Positions 5,904 through 31,321 of a stretch of 34,382 nucleotides of DNA are shown piece by piece (position 1 is the first letter of the stretch; the number at the start of each line of letters is the position of its first letter). The DNA is from Patescibacteria group bacterium (GTDB taxonomy: Bacteria > Patescibacteriota > Microgenomatia > Levybacterales > UBA12049). Under the pieces are notes generated by a model. It ran no database searches. It was not told the DNA's origin and saw only the letters and a list, made by a program, of their open reading frames with translations. The DNA lies in assembly GCA_036381535.1 (NCBI GenBank), contig DASVCQ010000150.1, positions 1-34,382 on the forward strand, read 5' to 3'. A program made the translations under genes and the position numbers.

Positions 5904-6497
5904 ATGGTTAAGGCTGTTATTTTTGATGTTGACGGTGTGATTATTGATATCTCAATTGAGAAGGCGCAGGAGCAACTTGAGAGAGATTATGGTATATCCC
6001 CCAGTCAGACAGAATCTTTTTTCAAAAATGAATTTCTATCTTGTCTTAGAGGTGAGAAAGACTTAAAAGAAGAAATTGCGCCGTATCTTAGGAAATGGAA
6101 ATGGAACGACAGTGTGAATGCATTTTTGGACTATTGGTTTGAGAGCCAAAAAGAAGTAGATGAAAGACTTATAGAAGAGATTAAAGATCTTAAGAAACAA
6201 AAAATAAAGGTTTGTATAGCAACCAATCAGGAAAAATATCGTGCAGAGTATCTACTGAATAGACTGGGTTTTAAAAATATTTTTGATGATATTTTTGTTT
6301 CATCAACAATAGGATTTACCAAGAAAAATCCTGAATTTTTTAAGCTTGTTTTGCAAAAGATAGACCTAAAGCCAAATGAAGTCATTTTTTGGGACGATCA
6401 TATGAGTTATGTACAGTCAGCAGAAAGTCTAGGAATCAACGCCCATTTTTATGCTAATTTTGACCAATACAAAAAAATAATGGATTCTTTGATATAA
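5904..6497 (+). CDS. HAD-superfamily hydrolase (subfamily IA-like)
   Basis: N-terminal IFDVDGV (DxDG nucleophile motif), ATNQ, and WDD near the C-terminus. Confidence 0.8.
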   Translation: MVKAVIFDVDGVIIDISIEKAQEQLERDYGISPSQTESFFKNEFLSCLRGEKDLKEEIAPYLRKWKWNDSVNAFLDYWFESQKEVDERLIEEIKDLKKQKIKVCIATNQEKYRAEYLLNRLGFKNIFDDIFVSSTIGFTKKNPEFFKLVLQKIDLKPNEVIFWDDHMSYVQSAESLGINAHFYANFDQYKKIMDSLI

Positions 6498-26737: not shown

Positions 26738-27190
26738 ATGGCTAACAAAACACAGAAAAGAGATTATATTTATGCAATAGGAAGAAGACGAGAGGCAACA
26801 GCTCGCGTTAGATTGTATGCATCTGTTAAAGATGGACAAGCCTGGGGAGAGCATGCAGTCAGTAAAGACCAGATGCTTGTTAACGGAATGCCGGTTGAGC
26901 ATTACTTTTCAGGACCTATTGCAAAAGCAAAATACCAACTTCCTCTTGTATTAACAAATACTTTGGGCAAATATGCTGTTACTGTAAAAGTAGAAGGCGG
27001 CGGAAAGTCCGGACAGCTTGATGCGCTTGTCATGGGGCTTGCAAGAGCTTTATCTTTAGCAGATAAAGAAAAAAATAGACCTGTACTTAAGGCAAAAGGA
27101 CTTCTTAGGATGGATGCAAGAGCAAGACAGAGAAGAATGGTTGGAACAGGCGGAAAAGCAAGAAGAAAGAAACAGTCTCCAAAACGTTAA
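26738..27190 (+). CDS. rpsI: 30S ribosomal protein S9
   Basis: GRRREATARVRL...GGGKSGQLDA...RKKQSPKR. Confidence 0.95.
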   Translation: MANKTQKRDYIYAIGRRREATARVRLYASVKDGQAWGEHAVSKDQMLVNGMPVEHYFSGPIAKAKYQLPLVLTNTLGKYAVTVKVEGGGKSGQLDALVMGLARALSLADKEKNRPVLKAKGLLRMDARARQRRMVGTGGKARRKKQSPKR

Positions 27191-27220
27191 AGGTTTACAA
27201 TAAATTATTCGGGATTAATT

Positions 27221-27244
27221 ATCCGCTGCAGGCGGATTTTTTTT
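27221..27244 (+). terminator. intrinsic terminator after rpsI
   Basis: ATCCGC-tgcag-GCGGAT followed by a T-run. Confidence 0.75.
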
Positions 27245-27298
27245 ATTTTCTTGAGAAGTTAAGCTATGATAGAATATTTAGGTTAAAAGAAGTTTTTT

Positions 27299-27604
27299 TT
27301 ACCTCCTTTCTATAATACACACTTGAGCTTTAAAGGATTTGCCTCCTCTTTGTCTTAAGACAGTCTCTATGTGACTTAATGTCCCTATGCCATCATCAAT
27401 AACTCCACTGACAATATAATTTTCCTGATTTTCTCCGATCAGATGGTGGGTTGTTTGTTCTCTCAAAAGATGAATTACTCGTACATCCTCTGCTCCAAGT
27501 TCTTCCAGTAACACACGCGTACTTCGGCGTTCTTTTCGCTTTCTTTCGATACTGCTTCCTTTAGGGTATGGAATAGTATCTGTAAATAAATTTCCTTCTT
27601 TCAT
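27299..27604 (-). CDS. hypothetical protein (possible degenerate cyclophilin-like C-terminal fragment)
   Basis: 101 aa from ATG 27604, which lies 2 nt after the upstream stop. The pattern THHLIG..NYIVSGVIDDG...IE.V......V.IIE resembles the cyclophilin C-terminal half, but catalytic motifs are missing. Confidence 0.4.
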   Translation of the reverse strand: MKEGNLFTDTIPYPKGSSIERKRKERRSTRVLLEELGAEDVRVIHLLREQTTHHLIGENQENYIVSGVIDDGIGTLSHIETVLRQRGGKSFKAQVCIIERR

Positions 27605-27606
27605 AG

Positions 27607-28629
27607 TTATTTCCAAAGTTGCAAAAATTGTTTTTCATGTTTTTTTACAACTTTAGTATTACCCAGTAGACCGTGTTGTGTCATATCAGGTGAATATTTG
27701 CTTGCAATAACGGTCCGTCCCAATGCTTCGGCCATACTTCTCACATGGTGCGGTCCTGCTCCGCAGCAAATACCGATATAATTAATCCCTATTTCTTCTG
27801 CATTTTTCGCAAATTCTGCCATTTCATCTCGAGTACAAAGGAAAGGATCTAGATTTACGGGGAAGGCGAGAGATCCGTCTTTTTGGCGAAGAAACTGAAA
27901 GGCAGGTTGTTTATTCGTAGTATGATACGGAACAGGTTGGGCTGCTGTATAACAGGATACCGATTTTCTGAGTCTTGTTAGAAGTGGAAGAATTGTCTTT
28001 GGGCCCCGAATACAGTTAAATCCCACTACATCTGCACCTTTTTCTTCCAGCATTTTACATCCCTCTATCCAGTCTATGCCATCCTTACTTTTTTCATAAG
28101 TTGCTCCAAAAGTAACTAGGGCAGGGAGTTTGAATTTTTTGATAACATCTAGAGCAATTAATGCTTCACCAACATATTCAATTGTTTCAGCAATAATAAA
28201 GTCTACACCTGCCTCTTTAGCCCAGCCAACTTGCTCAGTGTACATTGCCCTAACAACTTTTTCTGTTGACTTATCCTTTGGATCGTATGCCCAAGTATTG
28301 CAAATATTTCCTGCAACGAGTGCATCTGTTTCTTTGGCAACTTTTTTTGCAATTTTTAATGCTTGTCTATTCATTGGCTCCAGATCTTTTTCCCGTCCAA
28401 TCACTCTTAATTTTTCCCGATGAGCATAGTAAGTAAATGCAACTATCACTTCTGCACCTGCTCTTAAAAATTCCCTGTGCAATTCTTCCACTGCACTTGG
28501 GTAGTCCAGAACAACTTCAGGTACAAAAGCTCCTGCCTTTAAAAAACCGCGTCTTTCAAGCTCAAATAAATATCCTTCAGCACCTAATACAGTACCTTTT
28601 TTAAGTTTTTCTATAATTGATTGCTTCAT
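27607..28629 (-). CDS. homocysteine S-methyltransferase family protein (betaine-homocysteine methyltransferase-like)
   Basis: 340 aa. The N-terminal GAEGYLFELERRGFLKAG...LHREFLRAGAEV closely parallels BHMT. Zn-ligand cysteines are at GFNC and GICCG. Confidence 0.85.
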   Translation of the reverse strand: MKQSIIEKLKKGTVLGAEGYLFELERRGFLKAGAFVPEVVLDYPSAVEELHREFLRAGAEVIVAFTYYAHREKLRVIGREKDLEPMNRQALKIAKKVAKETDALVAGNICNTWAYDPKDKSTEKVVRAMYTEQVGWAKEAGVDFIIAETIEYVGEALIALDVIKKFKLPALVTFGATYEKSKDGIDWIEGCKMLEEKGADVVGFNCIRGPKTILPLLTRLRKSVSCYTAAQPVPYHTTNKQPAFQFLRQKDGSLAFPVNLDPFLCTRDEMAEFAKNAEEIGINYIGICCGAGPHHVRSMAEALGRTVIASKYSPDMTQHGLLGNTKVVKKHEKQFLQLWK

Positions 28630-28646
28630 ATTTTAAAAATTGCCAC

Positions 28647-28668
28647 AAAAAAACCCCGCTTAGCGGGG
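28647..28668 (-). terminator. intrinsic terminator inside the 5' leader of the BHMT-like gene (attenuator)
   Basis: Minus strand: CCCCGC-uaa-GCGGGG followed by U7, ending 17 nt before ATG 28629. Confidence 0.75.
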
Positions 28669-28707
28669 TAGTTCGTTATAACAAAAAAGCCTACAACGAA
28701 TTCCCCC
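28665..28707 (-). promoter_or_regulatory. candidate antiterminator helix
   Basis: GGGG(g)aaTTCGTT (28707-28695) pairs with AACGAActaCCCC (28677-28665). It shares CCCC with the terminator's 5' arm. Confidence 0.5.
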
Positions 28708-28756
28708 TCAGAGGAGTCATCATCATTGCCATCATTTTTGCACTTAATTTATTCAT
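28691..28756 (-). CDS. putative Met-rich leader peptide MNKLSAKMMAMMMTPLRGNSL (or 14 aa from ATG 28735)
   Basis: In-frame ATG ATG GCA ATG ATG ATG run at 28735-28718. The stop TAG (28693-28691) lies 1 nt past the antiterminator's 5' arm. Confidence 0.55.
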   Translation of the reverse strand: MNKLSAKMMAMMMTPLRGNSL

Positions 28757-28765
28757 GTAAAATGA

Positions 28766-28795
28766 ATTGTAAACAATAGTCCTAACCTTTGTCAA
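28766..28795 (-). promoter_or_regulatory. promoter of the leader/BHMT-like unit
   Basis: Minus strand: TTGACA (28795-28790), 18-nt spacer, TACAAT (28771-28766), then 9 nt to ATG 28756. Confidence 0.55.
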
Positions 28796-28884
28796 GTTTT
28801 CATTTTATGTTGGACACAAATAGAATTAATACTATGTTACATAGTAAAAACTCTATATTTGCCAATTTGATTCATTTTTATCTA

Positions 28885-28912
28885 TTGCCAACTTTACAGA
28901 GTATGTTATAAT
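28885..28912 (+). promoter_or_regulatory. promoter of the SurA-N-like gene, near-leaderless
   Basis: TTGCCA-16-TATAAT with TGt (28904-28906), then 9 nt to ATG 28922. Confidence 0.55.
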
Positions 28913-28921
28913 AGTCAAGTT

Positions 28922-29677
28922 ATGCCACGAAAAAACACAACCCCAAAAGTTAAAAAAACAACAAATAGCCCAAGAGCTGTTAGAGCACCAAAAAAAGCTA
29001 CTGCTAAAAAAACGTCAGCCCGAGTAAAAAAAGAAGTTTTACAACAGACTCAATCATCTAACTTCCAACAAGAATCAATTTCAAAGATTAAAGCAAATAC
29101 CAGAAATCCGAGACTTTGGATTGGTCTTGCAATTGTTATTGTTGCAATACTAGCATTTTCCTTTAAAGGACTTTTTGTTGCTGCAGTTGTTAATGGGCAA
29201 CCAATAAGTAGGCTTTCTGTTGTTGAGCAATTGGAAAAACAAAATGGCAAACAGCAACTTGATAGCATGGTAACTCAAACTTTGATTACGCAGGAAGCAC
29301 AAAAGAGAAAAGTCACAGTTACTCAAAAAGACATTGATACAGACCTCACCCAAATTGATGAAGCACTCAAAAAACAAGGACAAAGTCTAGATACTGCACT
29401 TGCTGCTAGAGGCCTTTCAAAGCAAGATCTAATTGACCAAATAAGACTTCAAAAATTGGTTGAAAAAATGGTGGGAAGTGATGTAAAAGTGACAGATGCT
29501 GATGTACAAAAATATATTGATGATAACAAAGATAATTTACCAACTGATTTATCAGATGATCAATTAAAATCTCAGGTCAAACAACAGCTTGAGCAACAAC
29601 AACTTCAGGATAAGACCCAGGCATTTGTTGCCAATTTGCAGAAAAACGCAAAAGTCTCCTACTTTGTTAGCTACTAA
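28922..29677 (+). CDS. membrane-anchored SurA N-terminal-domain chaperone-like protein (PrsA/SurA-like, no obvious PPIase domain)
   Basis: Basic N-tail and one TM helix (LWIGLAIVIVAILAF), followed by VNGQPISRLSVVEQLEKQNGKQ..., which is typical of SurA_N-type domains. Confidence 0.6.
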   Translation: MPRKNTTPKVKKTTNSPRAVRAPKKATAKKTSARVKKEVLQQTQSSNFQQESISKIKANTRNPRLWIGLAIVIVAILAFSFKGLFVAAVVNGQPISRLSVVEQLEKQNGKQQLDSMVTQTLITQEAQKRKVTVTQKDIDTDLTQIDEALKKQGQSLDTALAARGLSKQDLIDQIRLQKLVEKMVGSDVKVTDADVQKYIDDNKDNLPTDLSDDQLKSQVKQQLEQQQLQDKTQAFVANLQKNAKVSYFVSY

Positions 29678-29718
29678 ATTCAGATAAATAAAATTCTTCA
29701 GTTTAGAGTTTTATTTTT

Positions 29719-30150
29719 TTATTTTTCAGAAGAAATTATTTCCCAAGGTTCGGGGTTGAGGTTGGTGTATTTCCAAGAAGTAGGAGTAAAAATTAAAAAA
29801 GTAAGATTTTGATTGTGCTCGTTGGCCAGAGCATTTGGGAATTTTAAATAATATGCTGCCTTTGCTTCATCCAACTCTTTTTCACTTCTTGGAATATGTA
29901 TATCTCCATCTGCTTGGAAAGTTACCCATTCTTCCTCACTAAAGCCTGTAACAAAGGATGCATTTGTTGATAATCCATCTAAAAGACCTACACATTTTTT
30001 AGATTTTTTTTCAGTAATTATATACACATGAAAAGGATTATCAGAGTGTGCATAATGGACTGTTGAGGCATGAGGAATATTTTGGGGGCTAAGTATACTA
30101 ATGACCCCTACCTTGTGATGTGCTAAAAATTCTTCTACTTTATTATCCAT
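29719..30150 (-). CDS. pyridoxamine 5'-phosphate oxidase-like FMN-binding split-barrel protein
   Basis: 143 aa with an N-terminal pattern FL..HKVGVISIL...PHASTVHY. SD GAGG lies 8 nt upstream, inside the MBL gene end. Confidence 0.5.
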   Translation of the reverse strand: MDNKVEEFLAHHKVGVISILSPQNIPHASTVHYAHSDNPFHVYIITEKKSKKCVGLLDGLSTNASFVTGFSEEEWVTFQADGDIHIPRSEKELDEAKAAYYLKFPNALANEHNQNLTFLIFTPTSWKYTNLNPEPWEIISSEK

Positions 30151-31244: not shown

Positions 31245-31250
31245 AGTGTG

Positions 31251-31321
31251 TCGGGGATCGGGGAATTGAACCCCAGCCTGACGCACCCCATGCGCCAATT
31301 CTACCGTTAAACTAATCCCCG
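31251..31321 (-). tRNA. tRNA-Pro (anticodon GGG), no encoded CCA
   Basis: Minus strand CGGGGAT-TA-GTTT-AACGGTA-GAAT-T-GGCGC-AT GGG GT-GCGTC-AGGC-TGGGG-TTCAATT-CCCCG-ATCCCCG-A. It folds as a 71-nt cloverleaf with a 7-bp acceptor stem and a TTCAATT T-loop. Confidence 0.85.

What the first reader, a model, noticed from the sequence alone, without database searches (positions are those of the whole stretch)
28647..28795. Methionine-codon leader peptide with terminator and antiterminator upstream of a homocysteine methyltransferase
All positions are on the minus strand.
- **Promoter and ORF:** A TTGACA-18-TACAAT promoter is followed, 9 nt later, by a short ORF encoding MNKLSAKMMAMMMTPLRGNSL*. Codons 8-13 read AUG AUG GCA AUG AUG AUG (28735-28718).
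- **Antiterminator:** The stop codon UAG (28693-28691) lies 1 nt past GGGGgaaUUCGUU. That segment can pair with AACGAAcuaCCCC (28677-28665).
- **Terminator:** The same CCCC is the 5' arm of a strong terminator, CCCCGC-uaa-GCGGGG-U7 (28668-28647). It ends 17 nt before the start of the BHMT-like, methionine-forming enzyme.
- **Model:** This is the geometry of ribosome-mediated attenuation. A ribosome reaching the stop covers the antiterminator arm, so the terminator forms. A ribosome stalled on Met codons leaves the arm free, so transcription reads through.
- **Why it is unusual:** The classic leader-peptide attenuators I know of are his, trp, leu, thr, ilv and phe. Met genes are normally controlled by SAM riboswitches, T-boxes or MetJ/MetR. 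A Met-sensing leader peptide would therefore be unusual, especially in a reduced genome.
Basis: partly seen in the sequence, partly recalled or inferred. Interest (0 to 1): 0.82.

Follow-up and report, generated by a model that had tools for sequence, protein, structure and literature searches.

The report
Methionine-codon leader peptide attenuator (CPR)
A 21-codon mini-gene packed with methionine codons, followed by competing RNA hairpins and a terminator, sits ahead of a methionine-forming enzyme gene in an uncultivated, small-genome bacterium and in nine relatives, which points to a methionine version of the classic "stalled ribosome" switch where related bacteria use a SAM riboswitch.

Summary
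No known riboswitch, T-box or leader family accounts for it.

The element has the full classic four-segment attenuator layout:
- a near-consensus promoter;
- a start codon 9 nt after the -10 box, so the mRNA has almost no leader;
- the peptide MNKLSAKMMAMMMTPLRGNSL;
- a 1:2 hairpin whose 5' strand contains the Met codons;
- a 2:3 antiterminator;
- a 3:4 terminator with U7, ending 17 nt before a BHMT-like homocysteine methyltransferase gene.

The ten closest orthologues I could examine (77-100% protein identity) all share this layout.
- **Met run:** it stays in frame while the rest of the peptide varies.
- **Spacing:** the gap from the last Met codon to segment 2 is 9-11 nt in 9 of 10.
- **Pairing:** the segment sequences differ between loci, yet each locus's own segments 2 and 3 pair better than mismatched ones (9 of 20,000 permutations).

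More distant orthologues in the same bacterial group carry a SAM-I riboswitch on a nearly identical terminator. This places the gene in the methionine/SAM regulon and suggests the sensor was swapped.

Caveats: nothing is tested experimentally. In the window's own copy the terminator is about 3 kcal/mol more stable than the antiterminator, so read-through must depend on the order of folding.

I found no established Met leader attenuator in the literature. I rate it a new variant of a known kind.

The parts
28790..28795 (-). -35 box, TTGACA
   Evidence: TTGACA is present in all 10 leader loci.
28766..28771 (-). -10 box, TACAAT, after an 18-nt spacer
   Evidence: Relatives mostly have TATACT after a 15-18 nt spacer.
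28691..28756 (-). Leader ORF of 21 codons plus UAG, encoding MNKLSAKMMAMMMTPLRGNSL*. It starts 9 nt after the -10 box, so it is leaderless or nearly so.
   Evidence: Relatives have equivalent ORFs of 15-26 codons. At least six ordinary genes in the window also start 6-9 nt after a TATAAT-like box.
28718..28735 (-). Regulatory Met-codon run, AUG AUG GCA AUG AUG AUG (codons 8-13)
   Evidence: A Met run is conserved in frame in all nine relatives, weakest in L114 (MxM). The interrupting codons vary: GCA, GCU, ACU, CAG, GCU-ACA.
28712..28729 (-). Segment 1, GCAAUGAUGAUGACUCCU. It is the 5' strand of the 1:2 (anti-antiterminator) hairpin and includes the last three Met codons.
   Evidence: Minimum-energy folds. 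The 1:2 hairpin is -12.6 kcal/mol here and present in all 10 loci.
28691..28708 (-). Segment 2, AGGGGGAAUUCGUUGUAG. It pairs either with segment 1 or with segment 3, and it ends in the leader stop codon.
   Evidence: The G-run starts 10 nt after the last Met codon.
28665..28682 (-). Segment 3, GUUAUAACGAACUACCCC. It is the 3' strand of the antiterminator, and its CCCC is also the 5' arm of the terminator.
   Evidence: in the nascent RNA with a stalled ribosome the antiterminator is -18.4 kcal/mol, against -10.8 +/- 2.5 for shuffles (1 of 500 as good).
28647..28669 (-). Intrinsic terminator, ACCCCGC-uaa-GCGGGGU followed by the U-run (U7, 28653-28647)
   Evidence: (stem -12 kcal/mol).
27607..28629 (-). 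Regulated gene: a 340-aa BHMT-like homocysteine S-methyltransferase (PF02574). The three Cys that would bind zinc are invariant.
   Evidence: C206, C288, C289 invariant; mammalian BHMT, E = 2e-52.

Best explanation
This is a ribosome-mediated (leader-peptide) transcription attenuator that is specific for methionine.

**How it would work**
1. Transcription starts a few bases before the leader AUG, and a ribosome loads on the (near-)leaderless mRNA.
2. When Met-tRNA(Met) is plentiful, the ribosome runs to the UAG inside segment 2 and covers that segment. Segment 3 is then free to pair with segment 4, the terminator hairpin plus U7 forms, and RNA polymerase stops 17 nt before the gene.
3. When charged elongator tRNA(Met) is scarce, the ribosome stalls on the MMxMMM codons. 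It covers segment 1 but leaves segment 2 exposed, because segment 2 starts 10 nt past the last Met codon.
4. Segment 2 then pairs with segment 3 as soon as segment 3 emerges, which hides the terminator's 5' arm. Polymerase reads through into the homocysteine-to-methionine methyltransferase gene.
5. With no ribosome at all, the 1:2 and 3:4 hairpins both form and transcription terminates.

**Shown here:** the sequence parts, their conservation, the alternative pairings and the spacing.
**Inferred:** translation of the leader ORF, the transcription start site, stalling, and the response to methionine.
For: 1. **Anatomy.** All parts are at the stated coordinates.
2. **Dependence on read-through.** Only 17 nt separate the U-run from the gene's ATG, which leaves no room for a second promoter. 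Expression must therefore come from read-through.
3. **Conservation.** The ten closest orthologues examined (P0001-P0010, 77-100% identity) all have the same layout: promoter, start codon 6-10 nt after the -10 box (L113 is ambiguous), a 15-26 codon ORF with an in-frame Met run, and a terminator 2-20 nt before the gene. The rest of the peptide, and the codon that interrupts the run, both vary. That pattern points to selection on the codons rather than on a peptide or an RNA motif.
4. **Spacing.** The gap from the last Met codon to segment 2 is 9-11 nt in 9 of 10 loci. This matches the leading edge of a ribosome whose A site sits on that codon.
5. **Folding with a ribosome in place.**
   - With the ribosome on the last Met codon and the terminator's 3' arm not yet made, the best fold pairs 4-8 nt of the terminator's 5' arm with segment 2 in all 9 loci tested this way. 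At most 5 of 500 shuffles do as well in 8 of these loci (32 of 500 in L115).
   - With the ribosome at the stop codon, that arm is free in 8 of the 9 loci (2 of 7 nt still paired in L115).
   - L122 was folded only, where it also forms the antiterminator.
6. **Covariation without an alignment.** Each locus's own segment 2 and segment 3 pair at a mean of -16.9 kcal/mol. Mismatched pairs from different loci average -13.3. Only 9 of 20,000 permutations reach the observed value. The G-run, 5' arm and 3' arm change together:
   - GGGG / CCCCGC / GCGGGG
   - GGGAGG / CCUCCC / GGGAGG
   - CCGAGG / CCUCGG / GGGGCUC
7. **The gene belongs to the Met/SAM regulon.** Orthologues in other members of the group are preceded by a SAM-I riboswitch.
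   - Above Rfam's cut-off in L004, L033, L038 and L039.
   - Below the cut-off in L118 and L123.
   - Recognisable by eye in L003, L034 and L119.
   - The terminators in these loci are nearly identical to those of the leader loci.
8. **Leaderless starts are normal here.** Only 9 of 37 genes in the window have a Shine-Dalgarno-like motif. At least six genes begin 6-9 nt after a TATAAT-like box.
9. **No rival RNA family.** No known riboswitch, T-box or leader family reaches its threshold.
Against: - There is no experimental or transcript data. The organisms are uncultivated Patescibacteria.
- At equilibrium with a stalled ribosome, the terminator is still favoured by 2-5 kcal/mol in the window (-21.1 against -18.1) and in L114, L115 and L117. 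The antiterminator persists in the other 6 of 10. Read-through in the window's copy therefore requires kinetic trapping.
- L114 keeps only M-x-M in the run, and L035, which falls inside the same clade, has no leader.
- The covariation reflects few independent events: about three types for the G/C helix.
- Methionine is also needed to initiate the leader ORF. Severe starvation could therefore prevent ribosome loading and cause termination rather than read-through. This is a conceptual objection to any Met attenuator.
- Whether transcription and translation are coupled in these bacteria is unknown.
Confidence: 0.75

Rival explanations
1. The sensor is the same (ribosome stalling on Met codons), but the main output is translational. 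The 3:4 hairpin would hide the ribosome-binding region of the methyltransferase gene instead of stopping RNA polymerase, or as well as doing so.
For: In most relatives the terminator's 3' arm is GGGAGG or AGGAGG, 9-14 nt before the gene's ATG, so it could serve as a Shine-Dalgarno sequence. Leaderless poly-Cys short ORFs in mycobacteria are reported to attenuate expression of the downstream genes in their operons (bioRxiv 10.1101/834739).
Against: - In the window the 3' arm is GCGGGG, 24 nt before the ATG, and the gene has no Shine-Dalgarno-like motif.
- Every locus keeps a U-run of 5-8 straight after the stem, which is the mark of an intrinsic terminator.
- The SAM-I loci have the same hairpin plus U-run.
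Confidence: 0.12
2. The leader is an undescribed riboswitch or protein-binding RNA that senses SAM, SAH, methionine or a regulator. On this reading the AUG repeats are conserved as RNA sequence, and the ORF is incidental.
For: The Met codons form the 5' strand of a hairpin, so part of their conservation could reflect RNA pairing. Met genes are usually under riboswitch control, and the orthologues here use SAM-I.
Against: - No Rfam family matches.
- Conservation has a 3-nt period: the AUG codons are kept while the interrupting codon varies.
- The run is always in frame with a start codon at a leaderless-type distance from the -10 box, and with a stop codon in or next to segment 2.
- The strand that pairs with the AUG run differs between loci (UUCGUUGUAG, UUGUCGUAG, UAUCGCGUAG), while the AUG codons do not change.
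- The free RNA is only about 60 nt of simple hairpins, with no conserved unpaired core typical of a ligand pocket.
Confidence: 0.06
3. There is no conditional regulation. The short ORF and hairpin would form a constitutive, leaky terminator or insulator, or the ORF would encode a Met-rich small protein with its own function.
For: Nothing experimental shows a switch. L114's Met run has decayed to M-x-M.
Against: - A constitutive terminator 2-20 nt before the only gene it precedes would simply shut that gene off.
- The alternative 2:3 pairing is kept across loci through changes on both strands.
- The distance from the Met run to segment 2 is fixed.
- Apart from the Met run and the RNA-constrained C-terminus, the peptide is not conserved.
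Confidence: 0.05

Closest known systems
Classical leader-peptide transcription attenuators of amino-acid operons (E. coli trpL, hisL, leuL, thrL, ilvL, pheL; Rfam RF00513 Trp_leader and related families)
   Same: It shares the short leader ORF with a run of the codon for the pathway's own amino acid, the four segments forming mutually exclusive 1:2, 2:3 and 3:4 hairpins, and an intrinsic terminator just before the first gene. The regulatory codons lie within segment 1, and the stop codon is placed so that a ribosome that finishes the peptide covers segment 2. As in trp, the terminator is more stable than the antiterminator (established knowledge).
   Different: - The amino acid sensed is methionine. 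I found no established attenuator for it in the literature searched.
- There is no sequence membership in any Rfam leader family: Trp_leader scores 25 bits against a cut-off of 41.
- The leader ORF is leaderless or nearly so and has no Shine-Dalgarno sequence.
- The host is a Patescibacteria (CPR) bacterium rather than a proteobacterium.
Leaderless leader peptides of Actinobacteria: Streptomyces and Corynebacterium trpL, leuL and ilvL, the tentative S. lividans 'metL' upstream of metNIQ (PMC8079986), and the mycobacterial poly-Cys leaderless short-ORF attenuators (bioRxiv 10.1101/834739)
   Same: The leader ORF starts at or next to the transcript's 5' end, and runs of the cognate codon regulate downstream amino-acid genes. 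The S. lividans 'metL' is the only earlier suggestion of a Met-dependent leader that I found.
   Different: - S. lividans metL (MSTTSDRTPATEATTTPGARCMCRRMCAF) has two scattered internal Met codons. Its authors say a typical Rho-independent terminator structure is missing and its termination is unclear, and they give no comparative support.
- The element here has 5 Met in 6 codons, a canonical terminator, and conservation in 10 genomes.
- It comes from a different phylum and shows no sequence relationship.
SAM-I (S-box) riboswitch, RF00162, with a terminator as its expression platform
   Same: It controls the same orthologous gene or operon in sister lineages. It acts in the same direction (low Met/SAM turns the gene on), and it uses a nearly identical terminator, AACCUCC-loop-GGGAGG-U7.
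   Different: The window has no SAM aptamer. The signal would be read by a translating ribosome through charged tRNA(Met), not by direct binding of a metabolite.

Membership tests
Ribosome-mediated leader-peptide transcription attenuators (mechanistic class) | A short translatable ORF lies between the promoter and the first structural gene | tested here: met
   A 21-codon ORF at 28756-28691 starts 9 nt after the -10 box. Nine relatives have equivalent ORFs. Ordinary genes in the window start with the same geometry. Translation itself could not be tested.
Ribosome-mediated leader-peptide transcription attenuators (mechanistic class) | A cluster of codons for the amino acid made by the regulated pathway | tested here: met
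   Five AUG in 6 codons here, and 2-5 Met per run in relatives. The regulated gene is a BHMT-like homocysteine-to-methionine methyltransferase.
Ribosome-mediated leader-peptide transcription attenuators (mechanistic class) | An intrinsic terminator between the leader ORF and the structural gene | tested here: met
   A 7-bp G+C-rich stem plus U7 at 28669-28647. All 10 loci have one.
Ribosome-mediated leader-peptide transcription attenuators (mechanistic class) | Mutually exclusive 1:2, 2:3 and 3:4 pairings, maintained in evolution | tested here: met
   Folds with the ribosome footprint masked. Shuffle controls reach the observed value 0-5 times in 500 for 8 of the 9 loci tested this way. Own versus mismatched segment pairing: 9 of 20,000 permutations.
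Ribosome-mediated leader-peptide transcription attenuators (mechanistic class) | A stalled ribosome frees segment 2, and a ribosome at the stop codon covers it | tested here: met
   The gap from the last Met codon to segment 2 is 9-11 nt in 9 of 10 loci. The stop codon lies within or next to segment 2 in all of them.
Ribosome-mediated leader-peptide transcription attenuators (mechanistic class) | Read-through rises when the cognate charged tRNA is limiting | not testable with these tools
   This needs coupled in vitro transcription-translation, a reporter assay or Term-seq.
Rfam leader families (Trp_leader RF00513, Phe_leader RF01859 and others) | A covariance-model score at or above the family's gathering cut-off | tested here: not met
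   Trp_leader scores 25 bits against a cut-off of 41, and Phe_leader 15.4 against 55. Most of the Trp_leader match is the terminator.
SAM riboswitches (SAM-I RF00162 and the other SAM/SAH classes in Rfam 15) | An aptamer match in the leader | tested here: not met
   No hit in 28500-29000 even at E <= 10, and none in the leader-bearing loci at the gathering cut-off. The same search does find SAM-I in orthologous loci L004, L033, L038 and L039.
T-box leaders | A T-box covariance-model match (specifier loop and T-box sequence) | tested here: not met
   No T-box hit at either the gathering or the lenient threshold. The leader transcript is only about 110 nt.

The most novel reading that the evidence does not exclude
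The Met-codon leader peptide arose within one Patescibacteria clade by replacing the SAM-I aptamer, while keeping the riboswitch's expression platform (GGGAGG ... AACCUCC-loop-GGGAGG-U7). That would be a direct riboswitch-to-ribosome sensor swap. Because the leader mRNA is leaderless, the device would read both pools of Met-tRNA: the initiator pool to load the ribosome and the elongator pool to stall it. This would show how a Met attenuator can work despite methionine's role in initiation.
Probability: 0.3. Interest if true: 0.8.

Novelty: new variant of a known kind. Interest (0 to 1): 0.68.

Why it matters
- **A missing specificity.** Leader-peptide attenuation is a textbook mechanism, but its established examples cover His, Trp, Leu, Thr, Ile/Val and Phe, plus Cys in mycobacteria. 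Methionine genes are normally controlled by SAM riboswitches, T-boxes or MetJ/MetR. A well-supported Met-codon attenuator fills that gap.
- **A conceptual question.** It asks how such a device copes when its signal amino acid is also needed to start translating the leader.
- **A new host group.** It would be, as far as I could find, the first leader-peptide attenuator described in the candidate phyla radiation. It implies that these reduced-genome bacteria couple transcription to translation and use leaderless mRNAs widely.
- **An evolutionary test case.** The same gene carries either a SAM-I riboswitch or the Met leader on near-identical terminators. This offers a clean natural case of sensor exchange on a fixed expression platform.
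- **Testable.** The element is only about 150 nt, so it can be tested in vitro or in a heterologous host.

Tried and rejected
- **Known RNA families.** I ran Rfam on the whole window at gathering thresholds and on the locus at E <= 10. Only a tRNA-Pro passed. There was no SAM, SAH or T-box hit, and the weak Trp_leader, PyrR and sRNA hits are driven by the terminator. A known riboswitch is rejected.
- **MAFFT plus RNAalifold on the leaders.** The alignment mis-registers the stems because loop lengths differ, so it recovered only fragments of the 1:2 and 3:4 helices. I replaced column-wise covariation with per-sequence folding under ribosome masks, shuffle controls, and a test of own versus mismatched segment pairing.
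- **Genome-collection scan with the single protein.** This returned only 5 close Patescibacteria loci. The metagenome scan with an alignment returned mostly homologues from other phyla at 58-66% identity, none with a leader. Exact-protein look-ups of the top hits were what recovered the family.
- **Other Met-run leaders.** None turned up in the 34-kb window or in the flanks of related loci. A wider regulon could not be assessed, because the whole genomes were not available.
- **Literature.** Nine searches found no established Met leader attenuator and nothing on leader peptides in Patescibacteria. The only precedent is the tentative S. lividans metL.
- **Plus strand.** The reverse complement of the terminator has no T-run after it, so it is not a terminator on that strand.
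Full report
**1. The observation**

All coordinates are on the minus strand.
- **Promoter:** TTGACA at 28795-28790, 18 nt, then TACAAT at 28771-28766. This is the best sigma-70-like match in 27000-30000, at 11 of 12 positions.
- **Leader ORF:** nine nt after the -10 box, ATG (28756) opens a 21-codon ORF, MNKLSAKMMAMMMTPLRGNSL*. Codons 8-13 are AUG AUG GCA AUG AUG AUG (28735-28718), and UAG is at 28693-28691.
- **Terminator:** ACCCCGC-uaa-GCGGGGU, with U7 at 28653-28647. It ends 17 nt before the ATG (28629) of a 340-aa PF02574 protein.

The feature is not a chance event.
- Met is 2.3% of residues in the window's long ORFs.
- This is the only run of at least 4 ATG in 6 codons on either strand of the 34 kb.
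- In the first 112 related loci, such runs occur only at the orthologous position.

**2. Organism and regulated gene**

The window is a ribosomal-protein cluster (L17, L13, S9 and others) at about 36% G+C.

The closest homologues of the methyltransferase come from Patescibacteria (candidate phyla radiation) assemblies, including Levybacteria and Woesebacteria.

The enzyme is BHMT-like.
- Its best solved relative is mammalian betaine-homocysteine methyltransferase (E = 2e-52). That is far better than the homocysteine domains of MetH.
- Three cysteines (C206, C288, C289) are invariant in relatives. I read these as the zinc ligands; that assignment comes from prior knowledge of the family, not from a test here.

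It therefore very probably makes methionine from homocysteine. The methyl donor is not established.

**3. Known RNA families are excluded**

- Rfam at gathering thresholds finds only tRNA-Pro(GGG) at 31250-31321.
- At E <= 10 the locus gives no SAM, SAH or T-box hit. The top hit is Trp_leader at 25 bits (cut-off 41), most of it aligned to the terminator.

**4. Anatomy: a complete four-segment attenuator**

The minimum-energy fold of the free leader has two hairpins.
- **1:2 hairpin:** GCAAUGAUGAUGACUCCU (28729-28712) pairs with AGGGGGAAUUCGUUGU (28708-28693), at -12.6 kcal/mol. The last three Met codons lie inside segment 1, as the regulatory codons do in classical attenuators.
- **3:4 terminator.**

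Segment 2 can instead pair with segment 3 (GUUAUAACGAACUACCCC, 28682-28665). Segment 3's CCCC is the terminator's 5' arm.

I modelled ribosome footprints by masking the RNA up to 12 nt past the first base of the A-site codon.
- **Ribosome on the last Met codon, terminator 3' arm not yet transcribed:** the best fold is the antiterminator, at -18.4 kcal/mol against -10.8 +/- 2.5 for shuffles (1 of 500 as good).
- **Ribosome at the stop codon:** segment 2 is covered and the arm is completely free.
- **Full-length equilibrium with a stalled ribosome:** the window's terminator still wins, -21.1 against -18.1 kcal/mol. Read-through must therefore depend on the antiterminator forming first. The same holds for the E. 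coli trp attenuator (established knowledge).

**5. Comparative evidence**

Exact-protein look-ups and collection scans recovered the upstream regions of the ten proteins most similar to the window's enzyme (P0001-P0010, 77-100% identity). All ten have the same device (table).

| Locus | Leader peptide |
|---|---|
| Window | MNKLSAKMMAMMMTPLRGNSL |
| L001 | ..QMMAMMMTSLREALS |
| L030 | MIHEQIMMTMMMSSLRGSSL |
| L032 | MVLSNKTMTAMMMSPFREVLS |
| L113 | MTSTRKMMTMMMTPFGEVS |
| L114 | MMYRKFTIMTMSSLGGSLS |
| L115 | MTRAISLSFDMMMAS |
| L116 | MTHEPIAREAMMQMMPQPSPRGLLSA |
| L117 | .TKKQAMMATMMSSYREVIA |
| L122 | MIIATQSMMAMMSLS |

Features shared across the ten loci:
- TTGACA, a 15-18 nt spacer, then TATACT or a close variant.
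- A start codon 6-10 nt after the -10 box (L113 is ambiguous).
- A 15-26 codon ORF with an in-frame Met run, in which the interrupting codon varies.
- A gap of 9-11 nt from the last Met codon to segment 2 in 9 of 10 (14 nt in L116).
- A stop codon inside or next to segment 2.
- A terminator whose U-run ends 2-20 nt before the gene.

The helices differ in sequence but keep their pairing.
- **G-run / 5' arm / 3' arm triplets:** GGGG / CCCCGC / GCGGGG; GGGAGG / CCUCCC / GGGAGG; CCGAGG / CCUCGG / GGGGCUC.
- **Second half of the antiterminator:** UUCGUU:AACGAA, UUGUCGU:AUGACAA, GUUUGU:ACAAAC, UUGUU:AACAA and others.
- **Shuffle test:** the antiterminator of the nascent RNA beats shuffles in every one of the 9 loci tested this way. 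Shuffles do as well 0-5 times in 500 in eight loci and 32 times in 500 in L115.
- **L122:** it was folded only, where it also forms the antiterminator.
- **Alignment-free test:** each locus's own segments 2 and 3 pair better than mismatched ones from other loci, -16.9 against -13.3 kcal/mol. Only 9 of 20,000 permutations reach that value.
- **Equilibrium:** the antiterminator persists in six of the ten loci.

**6. The same gene is under a SAM-I riboswitch in sister lineages**

- Rfam finds SAM-I above its cut-off in front of the orthologue, or its operon, in L004, L033, L038 and L039.
- It finds SAM-I below the cut-off in L118 (40 bits) and L123 (29 bits).
- L003, L034 and L119 have the same aptamer by eye, two of them with long insertions.

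In those loci the gene usually follows a class I methyltransferase gene.

The terminators of the riboswitch loci and the leader loci are almost the same: AACCUCC, a 4-6 nt loop, GGGAGG, then U6-8.

A rough neighbour-joining tree puts nine leader loci in one clade, with L116 outside it, and the SAM-I loci basal or sister (no support values).

This shows that the gene belongs to the Met/SAM regulon and is switched on when Met/SAM is low, which is the direction the attenuator model predicts. It also suggests, as an inference only, that the leader peptide replaced the SAM-I aptamer on a retained expression platform.

**7. Plausibility of translating the leader**

The leader has no Shine-Dalgarno sequence, but that is normal for this genome. 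Only 9 of 37 genes in the window have such a motif. At least six genes (starts at 5904, 6505, 18122, 28922, 30154, 30894) begin 6-9 nt after a TATAAT-like box. Leaderless initiation therefore looks routine here, and the leader ORF has the same geometry.

**8. Rivals**

- **Translational output:** plausible as an extra layer in relatives whose 3' arm is GGAGG, 9-14 nt before the ATG. It is not plausible in the window, where the arm is GCGGGG, 24 nt away.
- **An undescribed riboswitch:** disfavoured by the 3-nt periodic, in-frame conservation and by the lack of a conserved unpaired core.
- **A constitutive terminator or a functional small protein:** does not explain the maintained alternative pairing or the fixed spacing.

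**9. Literature**

I found no established Met-codon leader attenuator.
- The only precedent is a tentative 'metL' upstream of metNIQ in Streptomyces lividans. It has two scattered internal Met codons, and its authors report that a typical Rho-independent terminator structure is missing (PMC8079986).
- Naville and Gautheret's survey of attenuators lists none for methionine (PMC2965389).
- Leaderless poly-Cys short-ORF attenuators are known in mycobacteria (bioRxiv 10.1101/834739).
- Nothing was found on leader peptides in Patescibacteria.

**10. Verdict**

Mechanistically this is a member of the leader-peptide attenuator class. Five of its six defining features were tested and met, and the physiological response could not be tested. 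It belongs to no described sequence family.

It is a new variant of a known kind in three respects: a new amino-acid specificity, a new phylum, and a leaderless layout that stands in for a SAM-I riboswitch.

The main weaknesses are the absence of any experimental data, the few independent covariation events, the thermodynamically weaker antiterminator in the window's own copy, and the unresolved question of how leader initiation fares under methionine starvation.

Confidence in the mechanism is about 0.75, and interest is 0.68.

Noticed in passing
window 5904, 6505, 18122, 28922, 30154, 30894 (gene starts): Many genes in this window have no Shine-Dalgarno-like motif (28 of 37). At least six start 6-9 nt after a TATAAT-like hexamer, which suggests this Patescibacteria genome uses leaderless mRNAs widely.
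   Followed up: partly
L003 580-800; L034 150-330; L119 ~600-838; L123 1625-1733; L118 680-775: The SAM-I-like riboswitches upstream of the methyltransferase / homocysteine-methyltransferase operon in related bacteria fall below Rfam's gathering score or are missed altogether. L003 and L119 carry long insertions that may explain this. The current RF00162 model appears to under-detect these variants.
   Followed up: partly
window 27299-27616 (-): A 105-aa ORF with a TTG start overlaps the end of the methyltransferase gene by 10 nt and has no Pfam or NCBIfam match. In relatives the position downstream of the gene holds a cupin or PNPOx-like gene instead. It is unclear whether this ORF is a real co-transcribed gene.
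   Followed up: partly
L121 578-2523; L119 1-561: Some relatives carry two tandem PF02574 paralogues (L121). L119 has a MetE-like Meth_synt_2 gene just upstream of the SAM-I-controlled operon. This hints at a variable homocysteine-remethylation gene set in these reduced genomes.
   Followed up: no
window 28885-28922 (+): A divergent promoter, TTGCCA-16-TATAAT with a TG extension, drives the SurA_N-like gene at 28922. That gene also starts 9 nt after its -10 box. The leader promoter and this one sit back to back in a ~165-nt intergenic region.
   Followed up: no
window 31250-31321 (-): tRNA-Pro (anticodon GGG) is the only RNA gene in the window detected by Rfam or ARAGORN.
   Followed up: yes
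L032 free-RNA fold: Segment 1 resembles segment 3, and segment 2 resembles segment 4. As a result, a nested arrangement of 1:4 plus 2:3 is about as stable as 1:2 plus 3:4 in some relatives. Folding order during transcription, not equilibrium, must decide the outcome.
   Followed up: no
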